The position numbers and the translations under genes are program-made. Positions 1-46,444 of a stretch of DNA of 64,000 nucleotides are shown piece after piece. Each line of letters begins with the position of its first letter. Positions within the stretch are counted from its first letter, which is position 1. Where the stretch lies: NCBI RefSeq assembly GCF_988242995.1, contig NZ_OZ547043.1, one strand, 5' to 3'. The notes under the pieces are model-generated. The model was not told the DNA's origin. It was given only the letters and a program-made list of their open reading frames with translations, and ran no database searches.

Positions 1-3000
1 TCCTGCCTGCGCCAGCTCGCCATATTGCGTACATAACGCCTGCAATTCTGGACGGTTTGCCGCCCATTCCCGCAGTGCATTTAGCGGCTGAGTCAATGCG
101 GCTTTCAACTGCGCATCGACCGGATACTCTGCATCCTGACGCGCGAGCGTCACTGCCAGTGCACTTTCCGGGCGATTCGCCAGCAGACGGTAGAGATAGA
201 GCGGACCGCCTGCTTTCGGCCCGGTGCCGGACAACCCTTCGCCGCCGAATGGCTGCACCCCGACCACTGCGCCCACCATATTACGGTTAACGTACAGGTT
301 ACCGACATGGGCCGAGCCAGTGACCTGGGCGATGGTTTCATCAATGCGCGTATGGACGCCAAGCGTCAGACCATAACCGGAAGCGTTAATTTGCTCGATC
401 AGCTCCGGCAGCTGGTTACGGTTATAACGCACCACATGCAGCACCGGACCAAAGACCTCTTTTTGCAATTCGGCAAAGTCATCCAGTTCAATCAGCGTCG
501 GGGCGACAAAGGTGCCGCTTTGCCATTCACGGGCATCTTCACTGTTTTCCCGCACTGCCTGGAACACCGGACGGCCTTTACTACGCATAGTCTGAATATG
601 ACGCTCAATATTGGCTTTCGCTTCGCTATCAATCACCGGACCGATATCGGTGGTCAGGCGACCAGGATTACCCATCCGGCATTCGGCCATTGCGCCGCGC
701 AGCATTTTCAACGTGTGGTCGGCAATCTCATCTTGCAGGCACAGCACGCGCAGTGCCGAACAACGCTGGCCCGCACTGTCGAACGCCGAGGCCAGCACAT
801 CTATTACTACTTGTTCGGTCAGGGCGGAGGAGTCGACAATCATCGCGTTCATACCGCCGGTTTCCGCGATGAGCGGAATAGGGCGACCCTGAGCGTCGAG
901 GCGGCTGGCGATATTGCGTTGCAGTAACGTAGCGACTTCGGTTGAACCGGTAAACATCACCCCGCGCACGCGATCATCACCCGTCAGTTGCGCGCCCACG
1001 GTTTCCCCCCGACCTGGCAGCAATTGCACCACGCCTGGCGGTACACCCGCCTCCACCAAAATGGCAATCCCTTGCGCGGCAATCAGCGGCGTTTGTTCTG
1101 CCGGTTTTGCCAGTACGCTGTTACCTGCCGCCAGTGCGGCAGCGATCTGCCCGGTGAAAATCGCCAGCGGGAAGTTCCACGGACTGATACATACCACAGG
1201 CCCTAATGGACGGTGGGTTTCGTTAGCGAAATCATCCCGCACCTGTCCGGCGTAGTAGTGGAGAAAATCGACCGCTTCGCGCACTTCGGCAATGGCGTTA
1301 CTGAAGGTTTTTCCGGCCTCACGCACCAGAATACCAATCAGTTGCTGCATCTGGCTTTCCATCAGCACGGCAGCGCGATGCAAAATTGCCGCGCGTTCAG
1401 CCGGAGGCGTGGCAAACCAGATTGGTGCGTTATTAACCGCACTTTCCAGCGCCTGTTCTACTTCACTCGGCGTGGCTTCGCGCACATAGCCCACAATATC
1501 TTTCGGCTCTGCCGGGTTAATAACGGGCGACATCTCACCAGCCGCGACCGATTGTTCCAGCATTGGCAAGGCCTGCCATTTTTGCAGTGCACTATTGAGC
1601 AGGGCAGAAGAGAGCGATGCCAGACGGTGTTCGTTAGCGAGATCCAGCCCTGCCGAGTTGTCGCGCCCGTGACCGTAAAGATCGCGCGGCAGGGGAATTT
1701 TCGGATGCGGTAATCCAGTTTGCCCTTCCTGTTGCGCCAGTTTTTCTACAGCAGTGACCGGATCGGCGACCAGTTCATCCAGGGGCAAAGAGGTGTCAGC
1801 AATACGGTTAACAAACGAGGTGTTAGCACCGTTTTCCAGCAGGCGACGCACCAGATACGCCAGCAGCGTTTCATGGGTACCGACAGGAGCATAAATACGA
1901 CACGGACGGTTAAGTTTGCCGTCGGCAACTTTCCCGGTGACCTGCTCATACAGTGGCTCGCCCATACCGTGCAGGCACTGGAACTCGTACTGACCCGGGT
2001 AGTAGTTCTGACCCGCCAGTTGATAAATTGCCGCCAGCGTATGGGCGTTATGCGTTGCGAACTGCGGGTAGATTAGATTCGGCACCGCCAGCAGCTTTTT
2101 CGCACAGGCGAGATATGAAACGTCGGTATACACCTTGCGGGTATAAACCGGATAACCTTCAAGGCCGTCCATCTGCGCGCGCTTGATTTCACTATCCCAG
2201 TACGCGCCTTTCACCAGGCGAATCATCAGACGGCGACGGCTGCGGGTGGCGAGATCAATCAGGTAATCAATCACCAGTGGGCAGCGTTTTTGATAAGCCT
2301 GAATAACAAAACCGATGCCGTTCCAGCCTGCCAGTTCCGGCTCGAAACAGAGTTTTTCCAGCAGATCGAGGGAGATCTCCAGACGATCGGCCTCTTCGGC
2401 ATCGATGTTAATACCAATATCGTACTGACGCGCCAGCAGGGTGAGTGATTTCAGACGTGGGTAAAGCTCTTCCATTACCCGGTCATACTGGGCGCGGCTG
2501 TAACGCGGATGCAGCGCCGACAGCTTGATTGAAATGCCCGGACCTTCATAGATGCCACGACCATTGGACGCTTTACCAATGGCGTGAATCGCCTGCTGAT
2601 AGGAAACCATATACGCCTGTGCATCTGCGGCGGTCAGCGCGGCTTCGCCCAGCATATCGTAGGAGTAACGGAAACCTTTCTCTTCCAGCTTGCGGGCATT
2701 GGCTAACGCTTCCGCGATGGTTTCGCCAGTGACGAACTGCTCGCCCATCAGGCGCATCGCCATATCCACACCTTTGCGGATCAGCGGTTCACCGCTCTTA
2801 CCGATAATGCGGTTCAGCGAGCGGGAGAGGCTGGCTTCGTTATGGGTGGAAACCAGTTTGCCGGTAAACAGCAGCCCCCAGGTGGCGGCATTAACAAACA
2901 GGGACGGGCTACGACCAATGTGTGACTGCCAGTTACCGTTGCTGATTTTGTCGCGAATTAACGCATCACGGGTGGCTTTGTCGGGAATACGCAACAACGC

Positions 3001-3510
3001 TTCTGCCAGACACATCAGCGCCACGCCTTCCTGCGATGACAGCGAAAACTCCTGCAATAACCCCTGGACCATACCTGCGCGACCACTGGCATTTTTTTGA
3101 TTACGCAGTTTATCGGCCAGTTGATATGCCAGTTTATGCGCCTGTTCAGCAACTGGCTGCGGCAGGCGGGCTTGTTCCAGCAGCATAGAAACCGCTTCGG
3201 TTTCCGGGCGGCGATAGGCAGCGGTGATAGCTGCGCGGGAAACCGACTGGGGCAAAATTTGCTCGGCAAAGTCGAGGAATGGCTGGTGTGGTTCCTCTGC
3301 CGGAGTGGGTGCTTCATCGCTCTCATTGGCAGCGCCAGAAAGCAGCGCAGGTAGCTCCGGAAGAGTATCGCTGTTTTCCAGTTGTTCAAGATAAGAAAAA
3401 ATCGCCTGCTTAATTAACCAGTGTGGCGTGCGATCGATACGTGTCGCGGCAGACTTAATACGCTCACGCGTCGCGTCGTCCAGCTTAACCCCCATGGTGG
3501 TGGTTCCCAT
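1..3510 (-). CDS. putA: PutA, bifunctional proline dehydrogenase / P5C dehydrogenase and put repressor; 3' end truncated by window edge
   Basis: Minus-strand frame runs from window edge to ATG at 3508-3510; N-terminus MGTTTMGVKLDD and window-edge residues match recalled PutA; not in ORF track because no stop inside window. Confidence 0.93.
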   Translation of the reverse strand, partial: MGTTTMGVKLDDATRERIKSAATRIDRTPHWLIKQAIFSYLEQLENSDTLPELPALLSGAANESDEAPTPAEEPHQPFLDFAEQILPQSVSRAAITAAYRRPETEAVSMLLEQARLPQPVAEQAHKLAYQLADKLRNQKNASGRAGMVQGLLQEFSLSSQEGVALMCLAEALLRIPDKATRDALIRDKISNGNWQSHIGRSPSLFVNAATWGLLFTGKLVSTHNEASLSRSLNRIIGKSGEPLIRKGVDMAMRLMGEQFVTGETIAEALANARKLEEKGFRYSYDMLGEAALTAADAQAYMVSYQQAIHAIGKASNGRGIYEGPGISIKLSALHPRYSRAQYDRVMEELYPRLKSLTLLARQYDIGINIDAEEADRLEISLDLLEKLCFEPELAGWNGIGFVIQAYQKRCPLVIDYLIDLATRSRRRLMIRLVKGAYWDSEIKRAQMDGLEGYPVYTRKVYTDVSYLACAKKLLAVPNLIYPQFATHNAHTLAAIYQLAGQNYYPGQYEFQCLHGMGEPLYEQVTGKVADGKLNRPCRIYAPVGTHETLLAYLVRRLLENGANTSFVNRIADTSLPLDELVADPVTAVEKLAQQEGQTGLPHPKIPLPRDLYGHGRDNSAGLDLANEHRLASLSSALLNSALQKWQALPMLEQSVAAGEMSPVINPAEPKDIVGYVREATPSEVEQALESAVNNAPIWFATPPAERAAILHRAAVLMESQMQQLIGILVREAGKTFSNAIAEVREAVDFLHYYAGQVRDDFANETHRPLGPVVCISPWNFPLAIFTGQIAAALAAGNSVLAKPAEQTPLIAAQGIAILVEAGVPPGVVQLLPGRGETVGAQLTGDDRVRGVMFTGSTEVATLLQRNIASRLDAQGRPIPLIAETGGMNAMIVDSSALTEQVVIDVLASAFDSAGQRCSALRVLCLQDEIADHTLKMLRGAMAECRMGNPGRLTTDIGPVIDSEAKANIERHIQTMRSKGRPVFQAVRENSEDAREWQSGTFVAPTLIELDDFAELQKEVFGPVLHVVRYNRNQLPELIEQINASGYGLTLGVHTRIDETIAQVTGSAHVGNLYVNRNMVGAVVGVQPFGGEGLSGTGPKAGGPLYLYRLLANRPESALAVTLARQDAEYPVDAQLKAALTQPLNALREWAANRPELQALCTQYGELAQAG

Positions 3511-3932
3511 GCCATTACTCCTGTTGTTCTGAAAGGTGCAACTTAACGTTATCGTGAAATATCCATGATGTTGCAACTTTGTGCAACCATGTTAAATGTG
3601 ACCTGCGTAGCAAGCTTAAAAATGAATGAAATGTTAATAAAAGAAATCGATATGACAGGGATTAAAAAAATAACTCAGACTTTTTCTCTGCGGCAGTTAA
3701 CATTTTTGAAAGGTGCAACCGCAAAAAATGTGAGAGAGTGCAACCTGATGAAAAATAGTGTCGCTGAGCACTAAAATTTAATGTAAATGGTGTGTTAAAT
3801 CGATTGTGAATAACCAGCGCTTCCGGCAGGATACGGTCGCCCTGGTAAAACATAAACTCTGCTACCCCGTTCCGGTGGCAGATATAACGGCAAGTTTCGA
3901 CATTGCCGATAATAATTTTTTGGAGACTTTAG
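3511..3932. promoter_or_regulatory. putA-putP divergent control region with five GTTGCA / TGCAAC PutA operator motifs
   Basis: Motifs at 3537-3542, 3570-3575, 3582-3587, 3714-3719, 3739-3744; AT-rich; lies between divergent putA and putP starts. Confidence 0.8.
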
Positions 3933-5441
<1,509 letters not shown>

Positions 5442-46027: not shown

Positions 46028-46444
46028 ATGCTCGATAAGCTCGACGCCGCCTTACGTTTTCAACAAGAGGCGCTCAATCTGCGCGCCCAGCGTCAGGAAG
46101 TGCTGGCAGCAAACATCGCCAATGCCGATACCCCTGGTTATCAGGCGCGCGATATCGATTTTGCCAGTGAACTTAAAAAAGTCATGCAACGTGGACGGGA
46201 TGCAACCAGTGTGGTTGCACTGACGATGACCTCAACGCAACACATTCCGGCGCAGGCGCTGACGCCTCCTACCGCAGAACTGCAATACCGTATTCCGGAC
46301 CAGCCTTCGCTTGACGGTAATACCGTCGATATGGATCGCGAACGCACCCAGTTTGCCGATAACAGCCTGCAATACCAGATGAGCCTTAGCGCGTTGAGCG
46401 GGCAAATCAAAGGCATGATGAACGTTTTACAGAGCGGAAATTAA
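46028..46444 (+). CDS. flgB: FlgB proximal rod protein
   Basis: 138 aa. Confidence 0.95.

What the first reader, a model, noticed from the sequence alone, without database searches (positions are those of the whole stretch)
3511..3932. Array of five PutA operator motifs in the put control region
GTTGCA (or its complement) occurs five times within 210 bp between the divergent putA and putP starts, two of them as a tight pair (3570-3587). This matches the known mode of PutA autorepression and is a clear, checkable regulatory architecture.
Basis: partly seen in the sequence, partly recalled or inferred. Interest (0 to 1): 0.2.

Follow-up and report, generated by a model that had tools for sequence, protein, structure and literature searches.

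The report
Known PutA operator array, E. coli
The five GTTGCA repeats between the divergent putA and putP genes are the well-known binding sites through which the E. coli PutA enzyme-repressor shuts off its own proline-utilization genes, so the finding is correct but ordinary.

Summary
It is textbook E. coli biology, not a discovery.

- **Location.** The window is E. coli chromosome. 3511-3932 is the 422-bp putA-putP intergenic region.
- **Sites.** GTTGCA occurs at five places within 208 bp: 3537-3542, 3570-3577 (palindrome GTTGCAAC), 3582-3587, 3714-3719 and 3739-3744. All can be read on the putA strand.
- **Chance.** About 0.16 hits are expected per 210 bp. None of 100,000 shuffles reached five.
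- **Match to known operators.** The site at 3712-3721 equals the PutA/2RBF consensus cGGTTGCACc. The window's PutA residues 1-52 are identical to the crystallised domain. A RegulonDB-derived PutA motif rests on five sites.
- **Conservation.** In 80 Enterobacterales loci, four sites are the most conserved 8-mers of the spacer. Their internal spacings are fixed at 10 bp and about 25 bp.
- **New details.** The putA-proximal site (3537-3542) was found only in the two E. coli-labelled loci. The tight pair coincides with a published ArcA-P site and with the putA -35/spacer region. A RefSeq "hypothetical protein" ORF lying over the array is probably spurious.
- **Limit.** The primary operator-mapping paper could not be read, so the site-by-site comparison is indirect.

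The parts
1..3510 (-). putA, encoding the trifunctional repressor / proline dehydrogenase / P5C dehydrogenase. The first 1170 codons are present; the gene runs off the window start.
   Evidence: Translation. RefSeq annotation. Pfam domains PutA_1st (RHH), PRODH, Pro_dh-DNA_bdg, Pro_dh and Aldedh. Residues 1-52 are identical to the PDB 2RBF and 2GPE chains.
3536..3543 (-). Operator nearest putA (O5 in my recollection of the published numbering). Sequence AGTTGCAC, core 3537-3542. It lies about +12 to +17 from the inferred putA transcription start.
   Evidence: It is intact in K-12 and in the E. coli genomes sampled. It is absent from E. albertii, Salmonella, Citrobacter and all the other genera. 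Column identity to the E. coli base is 0.39, against 0.61 for the rest of the spacer.
3570..3577 (-). Operator O4. It is the palindrome GTTGCAAC (AGTTGCAA on the putA strand) and lies in the spacer of the putA promoter.
   Evidence: It is invariant in 80 of 80 loci and always 10 bp from O3.
3581..3588 (-). Operator O3, GGTTGCAC. It overlaps the -35-like hexamer TTGCAC (3581-3586) of the putA promoter.
   Evidence: It is invariant in 80 of 80 loci. The promoter geometry is inferred.
3712..3721 (-). Operator O2, CGGTTGCACC. This is the sequence of the crystallised PutA52-DNA complex.
   Evidence: Exact match to the PutA/2RBF consensus cGGTTGCACc in PMC4655474. Conserved at 0.98.
3738..3745 (-). 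Operator O1, GGTTGCAC. It lies 25 bp from O2 and abuts the -35-like hexamer of a predicted putP promoter.
   Evidence: Conserved at 0.99. The 25 +/- 1 bp spacing to O2 is seen in nearly all of the 64 loci that keep both hexamers.
3553..3563 (-). Inferred putA core promoter end: the -10-like hexamer GATATT (3558-3563) and a transcription start near 3553.
   Evidence: The start is computed from Park et al. 2013, Tables S4 and S6. Their ArcA site at 1078163-1078193 corresponds to window 3568-3598 and is given as -45 to -15 from the mapped start. GATATT is conserved in the 63-sequence alignment. The accuracy is a few bp.
3568..3598 (+). Published ArcA-P three-direct-repeat site, ATGTTGCAACTTTGTGCAACCATGTTAAATG. 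It covers operators O4 and O3.
   Evidence: PMC3798270, supplementary Tables S1-S4 and S6: ChIP peaks, a predicted site, and putA raised 30.8-fold in an arcA mutant. The sequence identity was read.
3781..3813 (+). Published ArcA-P site at putP promoter P1. The footprint spans -15 to +9, which puts the P1 start near 3796.
   Evidence: PMC3798270 main text and Tables S4 and S6.
3933..5441 (+). putP, the sodium/proline symporter.
   Evidence: ORF. RefSeq annotation. Pfam SSF family, E = 1.5e-149.

Best explanation
This is the put control region of E. coli. It carries the five operators of the PutA autorepressor.

Established knowledge, not tested here. PutA is a dimer whose two N-termini form one ribbon-helix-helix (RHH) unit. 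That unit inserts its beta-sheet into the major groove at GTTGCA plus flanking bases; the best version is GGTTGCAC. When proline is scarce, oxidised PutA is cytoplasmic and occupies these sites. When proline reduces its FAD, PutA moves to the membrane, the operators empty, and both genes are expressed.

Inferred here from a literature-derived transcription start.
- O3 (3581-3588) covers the putA -35 hexamer.
- O4 (3570-3577) fills the promoter spacer.
- O5 (3536-3543) sits at about +12 to +17.
- Together these three would block RNA polymerase at the putA promoter.
- O1 and O2 (3738-3745 and 3712-3721) lie about 50-85 bp upstream of putP P1 and next to a predicted upstream -35 hexamer. They would repress putP.

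Shown here.
- The motif array and its statistical excess.
- Identity with the crystallised operator and with the crystallised protein domain.
- Very strong conservation of four sites and of their 10-bp and 25-bp spacings across Enterobacterales.
- Restriction of the fifth site to E. coli.
For: Motif positions and excess over chance. Gene identities and the RHH domain. 100% identity of PutA residues 1-52 to the 2RBF and 2GPE chains. The PutA/2RBF consensus cGGTTGCACc equals window 3712-3721. The RegulonDB-derived motif is built on 5 sites. Genomic SELEX gives a single PutA peak at the putA/putP spacer. The repression model is restated in PMC5879082.

In K-12 the five sites are identical, and its three SNPs in the spacer all lie outside the hexamers.

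Across 80 orthologous loci, O1-O4 are the most conserved 8-mers (0.98-1.00 against 0.61 for the rest). The O3-O4 spacing is 10 bp in 80 of 80, and the O1-O2 spacing is about 25 bp. The DNA-reading strand MGVKL, including Lys9, is invariant in the same loci. The putA transcription start was derived from Park et al. 2013.
Against: No direct binding data could be read for each individual site, because Zhou et al. 2008 is not held. The operator numbering and the 3+2 functional split come from my memory of its abstract.

The fifth site is not conserved outside E. coli, so conservation gives it no support.

The tight pair also lies inside a published ArcA-P site and over the -35 hexamer. Its perfect conservation therefore cannot be credited to PutA alone.

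The promoter positions are inferred to within a few bp. How O1 and O2 repress putP is not established here.
Confidence: 0.95

Rival explanations
1. The tight pair (3570-3587) is primarily an ArcA-P direct-repeat site, which represses putA anaerobically, rather than a pair of PutA operators.
For: Park et al. 2013 list ATGTTGCAACTTTGTGCAACCATGTTAAATG (window 3568-3598) as a three-repeat ArcA site under a ChIP peak, at -45 to -15 of putA. putA rises 30.8-fold in an arcA mutant. TGTTAA/TTAACA half-site-like hexamers recur 3 or more times in 57 of 80 spacers.
Against: The two repeats that cover the GTTGCA cores score only 7 and -0.1 bits; the strong repeat (10.3 bits) is the adjacent ATGTTAAATG. 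The putA site was predicted, not footprinted. The same GGTTGCAC 8-mer recurs at O1 and O2, outside any ArcA site, and equals the sequence co-crystallised with PutA. Dual use of this DNA by both proteins is likely. Use by ArcA alone is not.
Confidence: 0.03
2. The repeats are conserved because they are promoter elements, that is -35-like TTGCAC/TTGCAA hexamers, and not because a repressor binds them.
For: TTGCAC at 3581-3586 lies 17 bp upstream of the conserved GATATT and fits the inferred putA start.
Against: This can apply to at most one or two sites. O1, O2 and O5 are not placed as -35 elements of the inferred putA promoter, and on the putP strand they read GTGCAACC, which is not -35-like. 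The conserved unit is GGTTGCAC, wider than and offset from a -35 hexamer. The simple promoter scan did not score these as promoters.
Confidence: 0.02
3. The conservation reflects the protein-coding ORF annotated across the array (3565-3774, RefSeq 'hypothetical protein' WP_000979516.1).
For: The ORF is annotated in most E. coli RefSeq genomes.
Against: The reading frame is cut by stops after 11-43 codons in most of the 80 species. It is even cut in E. coli E69 (19 codons) and E. albertii (33 codons). Conservation is confined to the operator blocks. There is no Pfam match.
Confidence: 0.01

Closest known systems
E. coli K-12 put control region, PutA operators 1-5 (Zhou et al. 2008, J Mol Biol 381:174; PDB 2RBF, PutA52 bound to operator 2)
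   Same: It is the same locus. All five GTTGCA sites sit at identical positions. The operator-2 decamer is identical. The PutA DNA-binding domain is identical.
   Different: Only three SNPs separate the window from K-12 in the 422-bp spacer (3530, 3603 and 3862), and none is in a hexamer. The window is therefore a non-K-12 E. coli strain.
put control regions of Salmonella, Citrobacter, Enterobacter, Kosakonia, Yersinia, Pantoea and others (orthologous loci L004-L081)
   Same: All have divergent putA-putP genes. All share the invariant GGTTGCACAAAGTTGCAAC pair and, in most, the distal pair spaced 25 bp apart. All sites are on the putA strand.
   Different: They lack the putA-proximal fifth site. 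A few lineages have their own extra site elsewhere: TGCAAC 24 bp after O4 in L009, L019 and L040, and GTTGCA 55 bp after O4 in two Yersinia.
Pseudomonas putida PutA45 RHH domain and its DNA complex (PDB 2JXG/2JXH/2JXI)
   Same: It is a homologous RHH domain (E = 2e-20). From memory, it also recognises a GTTGCA-containing operator.
   Different: It comes from a different genus. Its control region was not examined here.
Tandem-operator RHH repressors (Arc, Mnt, MetJ, CopG)
   Same: They read the major groove with a beta-sheet. Their sites are closely spaced, about one helical turn apart, like O3-O4 at 10 bp.
   Different: Those proteins bind as cooperative dimers of dimers. PutA is described as acting as a single dimer per site (PMC2777438), and it is fused to a 1320-residue enzyme.
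ArcA-P direct-repeat sites (Park et al. 2013)
   Same: Window 3568-3598 and 3781-3813 are listed ArcA sites of the putA and putP promoters.
   Different: The ArcA consensus is TGTTA-like. The GTTGCA cores are poor ArcA repeats, scoring 7 and -0.1 bits.

Membership tests
PutA (RHH) operator array of the enterobacterial put regulon | Lies in the spacer between divergently transcribed putA and putP | tested here: met
   putA is on the - strand and ends at 3510. putP is on the + strand and starts at 3933. The same arrangement is found in 80 of 80 related loci.
PutA (RHH) operator array of the enterobacterial put regulon | [quoted passage not shown] | tested here: met
   Pfam PF21775 (PutA RHH domain), E = 1.1e-21. 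Residues 1-52 are 100% identical to the 2RBF and 2GPE chains.
PutA (RHH) operator array of the enterobacterial put regulon | Multiple copies of the core hexamer GTTGCA (five in E. coli) | tested here: met
   Five sites within 208 bp, far above chance. The RegulonDB-derived motif is built on 5 sites.
PutA (RHH) operator array of the enterobacterial put regulon | Flanking bases match the contacted sequence of the crystallised operator (cGGTTGCACc) | tested here: met
   Window 3712-3721 matches exactly. GGTTGCAC is exact at three sites, one site has 1 mismatch, and the palindromic site has 2 mismatches.
PutA (RHH) operator array of the enterobacterial put regulon | Sites overlap or adjoin the putA and putP promoters | tested here: inconclusive
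   The putA start inferred from Park et al. 2013 places O3 on the -35 hexamer, O4 in the spacer and O5 at about +12 to +17. O1 and O2 lie 50-85 bp upstream of putP P1. No transcription-start data were generated here.
PutA (RHH) operator array of the enterobacterial put regulon | Each site is bound by PutA in vitro or in vivo | not testable with these tools
   Literature only: a single genomic-SELEX peak on this spacer and the crystal complex for one site. The gel-shift mapping paper is not held.
PutA (RHH) operator array of the enterobacterial put regulon | Sites conserved in orthologous control regions | tested here: met
   Met for four sites (identity 0.98-1.00 against 0.61 background). Not met for the putA-proximal site at 3537-3542 (0.39; present only in the two E. 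coli-labelled loci).
ArcA-P direct-repeat binding site | Two or more TGTTA-like 10-bp repeats at about 11-bp spacing under an ArcA ChIP peak | tested here: inconclusive
   Park et al. 2013 list this for window 3568-3598, but the repeats over the GTTGCA cores score 7 and -0.1 bits, and the putA site was not footprinted. I ran no independent scoring.

The most novel reading that the evidence does not exclude
The putA-proximal fifth operator (3537-3542) is a recent addition specific to E. coli, layered on an ancient four-operator design.

It carries the same 13-nt sequence as operator 2 and its flank (GTTGCACCTTTCA on the putA strand; TGAAAGGTGCAAC on the + strand, within the 16-nt repeats 3527-3542 and 3704-3719). 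It sits in the transcribed leader. It would therefore give E. coli tighter putA autorepression than Salmonella or E. albertii.

The same repeat makes the control region prone to deletion, as seen in strain 2013C-3492, which has lost 177 bp that include the putA promoter.

Separately, the invariant 19-mer GGTTGCACAAAGTTGCAAC would be a three-way shared element, used by PutA, by ArcA-P and as the -35 hexamer.
Probability: 0.4. Interest if true: 0.3.

Novelty: already known. Interest (0 to 1): 0.1.

Why it matters
It matters little as a discovery. The put control region is a classic example of a "trigger enzyme" that represses its own operon, and the five GTTGCA operators were mapped and one was crystallised in 2008.

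The check does show that a sequence-only reader can recover a real regulatory architecture. It also adds three modest comparative points:
- Four operators and their spacings are nearly invariant from Escherichia to Yersinia and Pantoea.
- The fifth operator is lineage-specific.
- The tight pair is shared with an ArcA site and the putA -35 hexamer.

These points could guide studies of operator turnover and of how proline and oxygen signals are combined at one promoter.

Tried and rejected
Papers not held. I tried to open the primary papers and reviews: Zhou 2008 (PMID 18586269 / PMC2665032), PMC2664619, PMC3715380, PMC5650515, PMC1390768 and PMC3234803. None is held.

Full-text searches.
- Searches for PutA with GTTGCA returned mostly false hits, because "putative" matches "puta" and the sequence matches primer strings.
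- Only PMC4655474 was useful.

Rfam. A scan of 3400-4050 found nothing.

A sixth operator 25 bp upstream of O3 (window 3607-3612, TGCTAC on the putA strand in this window).
- It is an exact TGCAAC or GTTGCA in only 10 of 80 loci, with mixed orientation.
- It is one mismatch off in E. coli.
- It may belong to a different conserved element next to TCACATTTAACA.
- I did not count it as an operator.

Phase-locked DNA looping between the two operator pairs.
- The distance between the pairs drifts over 130-136 bp, and over 107-171 bp in outlying taxa.
- The spacings within each pair are fixed.
- I therefore found no support for strict helical phasing.

The three GTTGCA hits at 46185-46219 lie inside the flgB coding sequence and are treated as chance.

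The simple sigma-70 scan did not find the putA promoter. It gave one putP-side hit, which is no more than the shuffles give.

Full report
**What is there**

The window is E. coli chromosome. A 601-bp query around the finding matches 5,420 of 5,426 complete E. coli genomes, almost all at 99% identity or more. The annotated features under the match are putA, a "hypothetical protein" and putP.

- putA lies on the minus strand. Its start codon is the reverse complement of 3508-3510, and the gene runs off the window start.
- putP is 3933-5441 on the plus strand.
- The finding's coordinates, 3511-3932, are exactly the 422-bp spacer, which is 39% G+C.
- Pfam confirms the PutA RHH domain, the PRODH, Pro_dh and Aldedh domains in putA, and the SSF symporter family in putP.

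**The observation**

GTTGCA or its complement occurs at these places:
- 3537-3542 (-)
- 3570-3575 (+), overlapping 3572-3577 (-); together these are one palindrome, GTTGCAAC
- 3582-3587 (-)
- 3714-3719 (-)
- 3739-3744 (-)

All five can be read as GTTGCA on the putA-coding strand.

The hexamer is not common in the window. There are 49 matches against a shuffle mean of 58. The expectation is therefore 0.16 per 210 bp, and Poisson P(>=5) is 8e-7. No other 210-bp stretch has more than three matches. None of 100,000 shuffles of the spacer reached five.

The sites share more than the hexamer. GGTTGCAC is exact at 3581-3588, 3713-3720 and 3738-3745, which is three of the five exact copies in the whole window. 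The site at 3536-3543 has one mismatch (AGTTGCAC). The palindromic site reads AGTTGCAA.

**Identity with the known operators**

- PutA residues 1-52 encoded in the window are 100% identical to the chains of PDB 2GPE and 2RBF.
- PMC4655474 tabulates the PutA/2RBF consensus as cGGTTGCACc. This is exactly the reverse complement of window 3712-3721.
- The supplement of the same paper lists the RegulonDB-derived PutA motif as 10 bp long, built from five known sites. Every model feature lies within G3-T4-T5-G6-C7-A8, that is GTTGCA.
- Genomic SELEX with purified PutA gave a single peak, on the putA/putP spacer (PMC8249747).
- E. coli K-12 (DH1) has the same five sites. Its only differences from the window are three SNPs, at 3530, 3603 and 3862, all outside the hexamers.
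- From memory, the abstract of Zhou et al. 2008 reports five GTTGCA operators. Three are critical for putA repression and two for putP repression. The crystal structure is of operator 2. Substituting operator 4's flanks into operator 2 lowers affinity about 15-fold. This agrees with the 3+2 layout here and with the palindromic site having the poorest flanks.
- I could not open that paper or its companions. The site-by-site comparison is therefore direct for one operator and indirect for the other four.

**Comparative evidence**

A scan of one genome per species returned 80 loci from Escherichia, Salmonella, Citrobacter, Enterobacter, Klebsiella/Raoultella, Kosakonia, Buttiauxella, Cedecea, Serratia, Hafnia, Rahnella, Yersinia, Pantoea and others. 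All have divergent putA-putP genes with spacers of 375-700 bp.

- Motif density is 11.5 per kb in the spacers against 0.51 per kb in the flanking coding DNA. GTTGCA is the hexamer most often present in three or more copies, in 79 of 80 spacers.
- The block GGTTGCACAAAGTTGCAAC is essentially invariant. Seventy-eight of 80 loci have it exactly, and the 10-bp spacing holds in 80 of 80.
- The distal pair is exact in 64 loci with 25 +/- 1 bp spacing. In most of the remaining loci it is replaced, at the same positions, by variants differing at one or two bases (GTTGTA, GTTACA, GTAACA).
- In a 63-sequence alignment these four 8-mers are the most conserved in the spacer. Identity to the E. coli base is 0.98-1.00, against 0.61 for the rest.
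- The DNA-reading beta-strand of PutA (MGVKL, including Lys9) is invariant in the same loci.
- The distance between the two pairs drifts over 130-136 bp, and more in outlying taxa, so strict helical phasing between the pairs is not supported.

**The fifth site is different**

- The putA-proximal site at 3537-3542 is present only in the two loci labelled E. coli.
- At the same position E. albertii has GCTATA, and Salmonella, Citrobacter and the other genera have unrelated sequence. Column identity is 0.39.
- Within E. coli the site is stable. The surrounding 64 bp are 100% identical in 4,011 genomes and 95-99% identical in 1,403 more. All full-length hits listed in that band had one mismatch, and in the three sampled it lay outside the hexamer.
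- The site and its flank share 13 identical bases with operator 2 (TGAAAGGTGCAAC on the + strand). These lie within 16-nt direct repeats at 3527-3542 and 3704-3719 that are 94% identical.
- One E. coli genome (2013C-3492) has a 177-bp deletion exactly between these repeats. It removes the tight pair and the putA promoter.
- A few other lineages carry their own extra site downstream of the tight pair.

**How it works**

The established model is restated in held papers. Without proline, cytoplasmic PutA binds the operators and represses putA and putP. With proline, PutA moves to the membrane and the genes are expressed.

The promoter geometry here is inferred. Park et al. 2013 list an ArcA-P site at MG1655 1078163-1078193. 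Its 31-nt sequence is window 3568-3598, and it is given as -45 to -15 from the mapped putA start. That places the start near window 3553.

- The conserved GATATT (3558-3563) then serves as the -10 hexamer.
- TTGCAC (3581-3586), which lies inside O3, sits 17 bp upstream as the -35 hexamer.
- O4 fills the spacer between them.
- O5 lies at about +12 to +17.

Occupancy of O3, O4 and O5 would therefore exclude or block RNA polymerase.

The ArcA footprint at putP P1 spans -15 to +9, within window 3781-3813. This puts the P1 start near 3796. O1 and O2 are then about 50-85 bp upstream of it. O1 abuts the -35-like hexamer of the only promoter-like hit on that side. I could not settle how O1 and O2 repress putP.

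**A shared element**

The tight pair is also the published ArcA-P site, and putA rises 30.8-fold in an arcA mutant. The two ArcA repeats that lie over the GTTGCA cores are weak, at 7 and -0.1 bits, while the adjacent repeat ATGTTAAATG scores 10.3 bits. The perfect conservation of the 19-mer probably reflects combined constraints from PutA, the -35 hexamer and perhaps ArcA.

**Rivals rejected**

- ArcA alone does not explain the array.
- Promoter hexamers alone do not explain it.
- The ORF at 3565-3774, annotated in RefSeq as a hypothetical protein, does not explain it. Its frame is broken by stops in most species, and even in E. coli E69 and E. albertii, and it has no Pfam match.

**Verdict**

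The feature is already known, so interest is low.

Noticed in passing
window 3565-3774 (+): RefSeq annotates a 69-aa 'hypothetical protein' (WP_000979516.1) lying across four of the five operators. The frame is interrupted by stops after 11-43 codons in most of the 80 related species, and after 19 and 33 codons in E. coli E69 and E. albertii. It has no Pfam match. It is probably a spurious gene call.
   Followed up: yes
window 3537-3542; loci L002-L081: The putA-proximal operator is found only in the two E. coli-labelled loci. E. albertii, Salmonella, Citrobacter and every other genus lack it, while the other four operators are nearly invariant. E. fergusonii and the other Escherichia species were not sampled.
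   Followed up: partly
window 3568-3598: The tight PutA operator pair lies inside the ArcA-P three-repeat site published by Park et al. 2013 (ChIP peak; putA up 30.8-fold in an arcA mutant). The same DNA probably serves PutA, ArcA and the putA -35 hexamer.
   Followed up: partly
window 3527-3542 and 3704-3719; locus L086 (E. coli 2013C-3492, NZ_CP027445.1): A 16-nt direct repeat (15 of 16 identical) carries two of the operators. One natural isolate has a 177-bp deletion exactly between the two copies. It removes the tight pair and the putA promoter and leaves only two GTTGCA sites.
   Followed up: partly
locus L087 (E. coli EC22, NZ_CM169479.1), corresponding to about window 3662: An IS1 element interrupts the put spacer after about 152 bp. 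The DNA from there through putP to part of pgaB is missing.
   Followed up: no
window 3591-3596, 3631-3636, 3698-3703, 3793-3798 and the related loci: TGTTAA/TTAACA recurs three or more times in 57 of 80 put spacers. It is the second family of recurrent hexamers after GTTGCA. It resembles ArcA half-sites but was not tested.
   Followed up: no
window 3607-3612: A semi-conserved CTTGCAA-like element lies 25 bp upstream of O3. This is the same spacing as O1-O2. It is an exact TGCAAC or GTTGCA in 10 of 80 loci, including E. albertii and Salmonella, but reads TGCTAC on the putA strand in this window. It may be a degenerate extra operator or part of another site next to the conserved TCACATTTAACA.
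   Followed up: partly
window 3815-3911: The putP leader contains strongly conserved blocks (for example GCTTCCGGCAGGATACGGTCGCC at about 3819-3841, and CGGTTCCGG-like sequence at about 3866-3876). It also has a short hairpin-forming inverted repeat just upstream of the ribosome-binding site (TAACGGCAA at 3885-3893 and TTGCCGATA at 3903-3911). There is no Rfam match.
   Followed up: partly
window 46185-46219: Three GTTGCA hits fall within 35 bp, the only other local cluster in the window. They lie inside the flgB coding sequence (ORF 46028-46444) and are most likely chance.
   Followed up: yes
window 3518-3529 (-): The C/A-rich sequence GAACAACAGGAG, which includes the putA Shine-Dalgarno sequence, is conserved across most genera although the rest of the short putA leader is not.
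   Followed up: no
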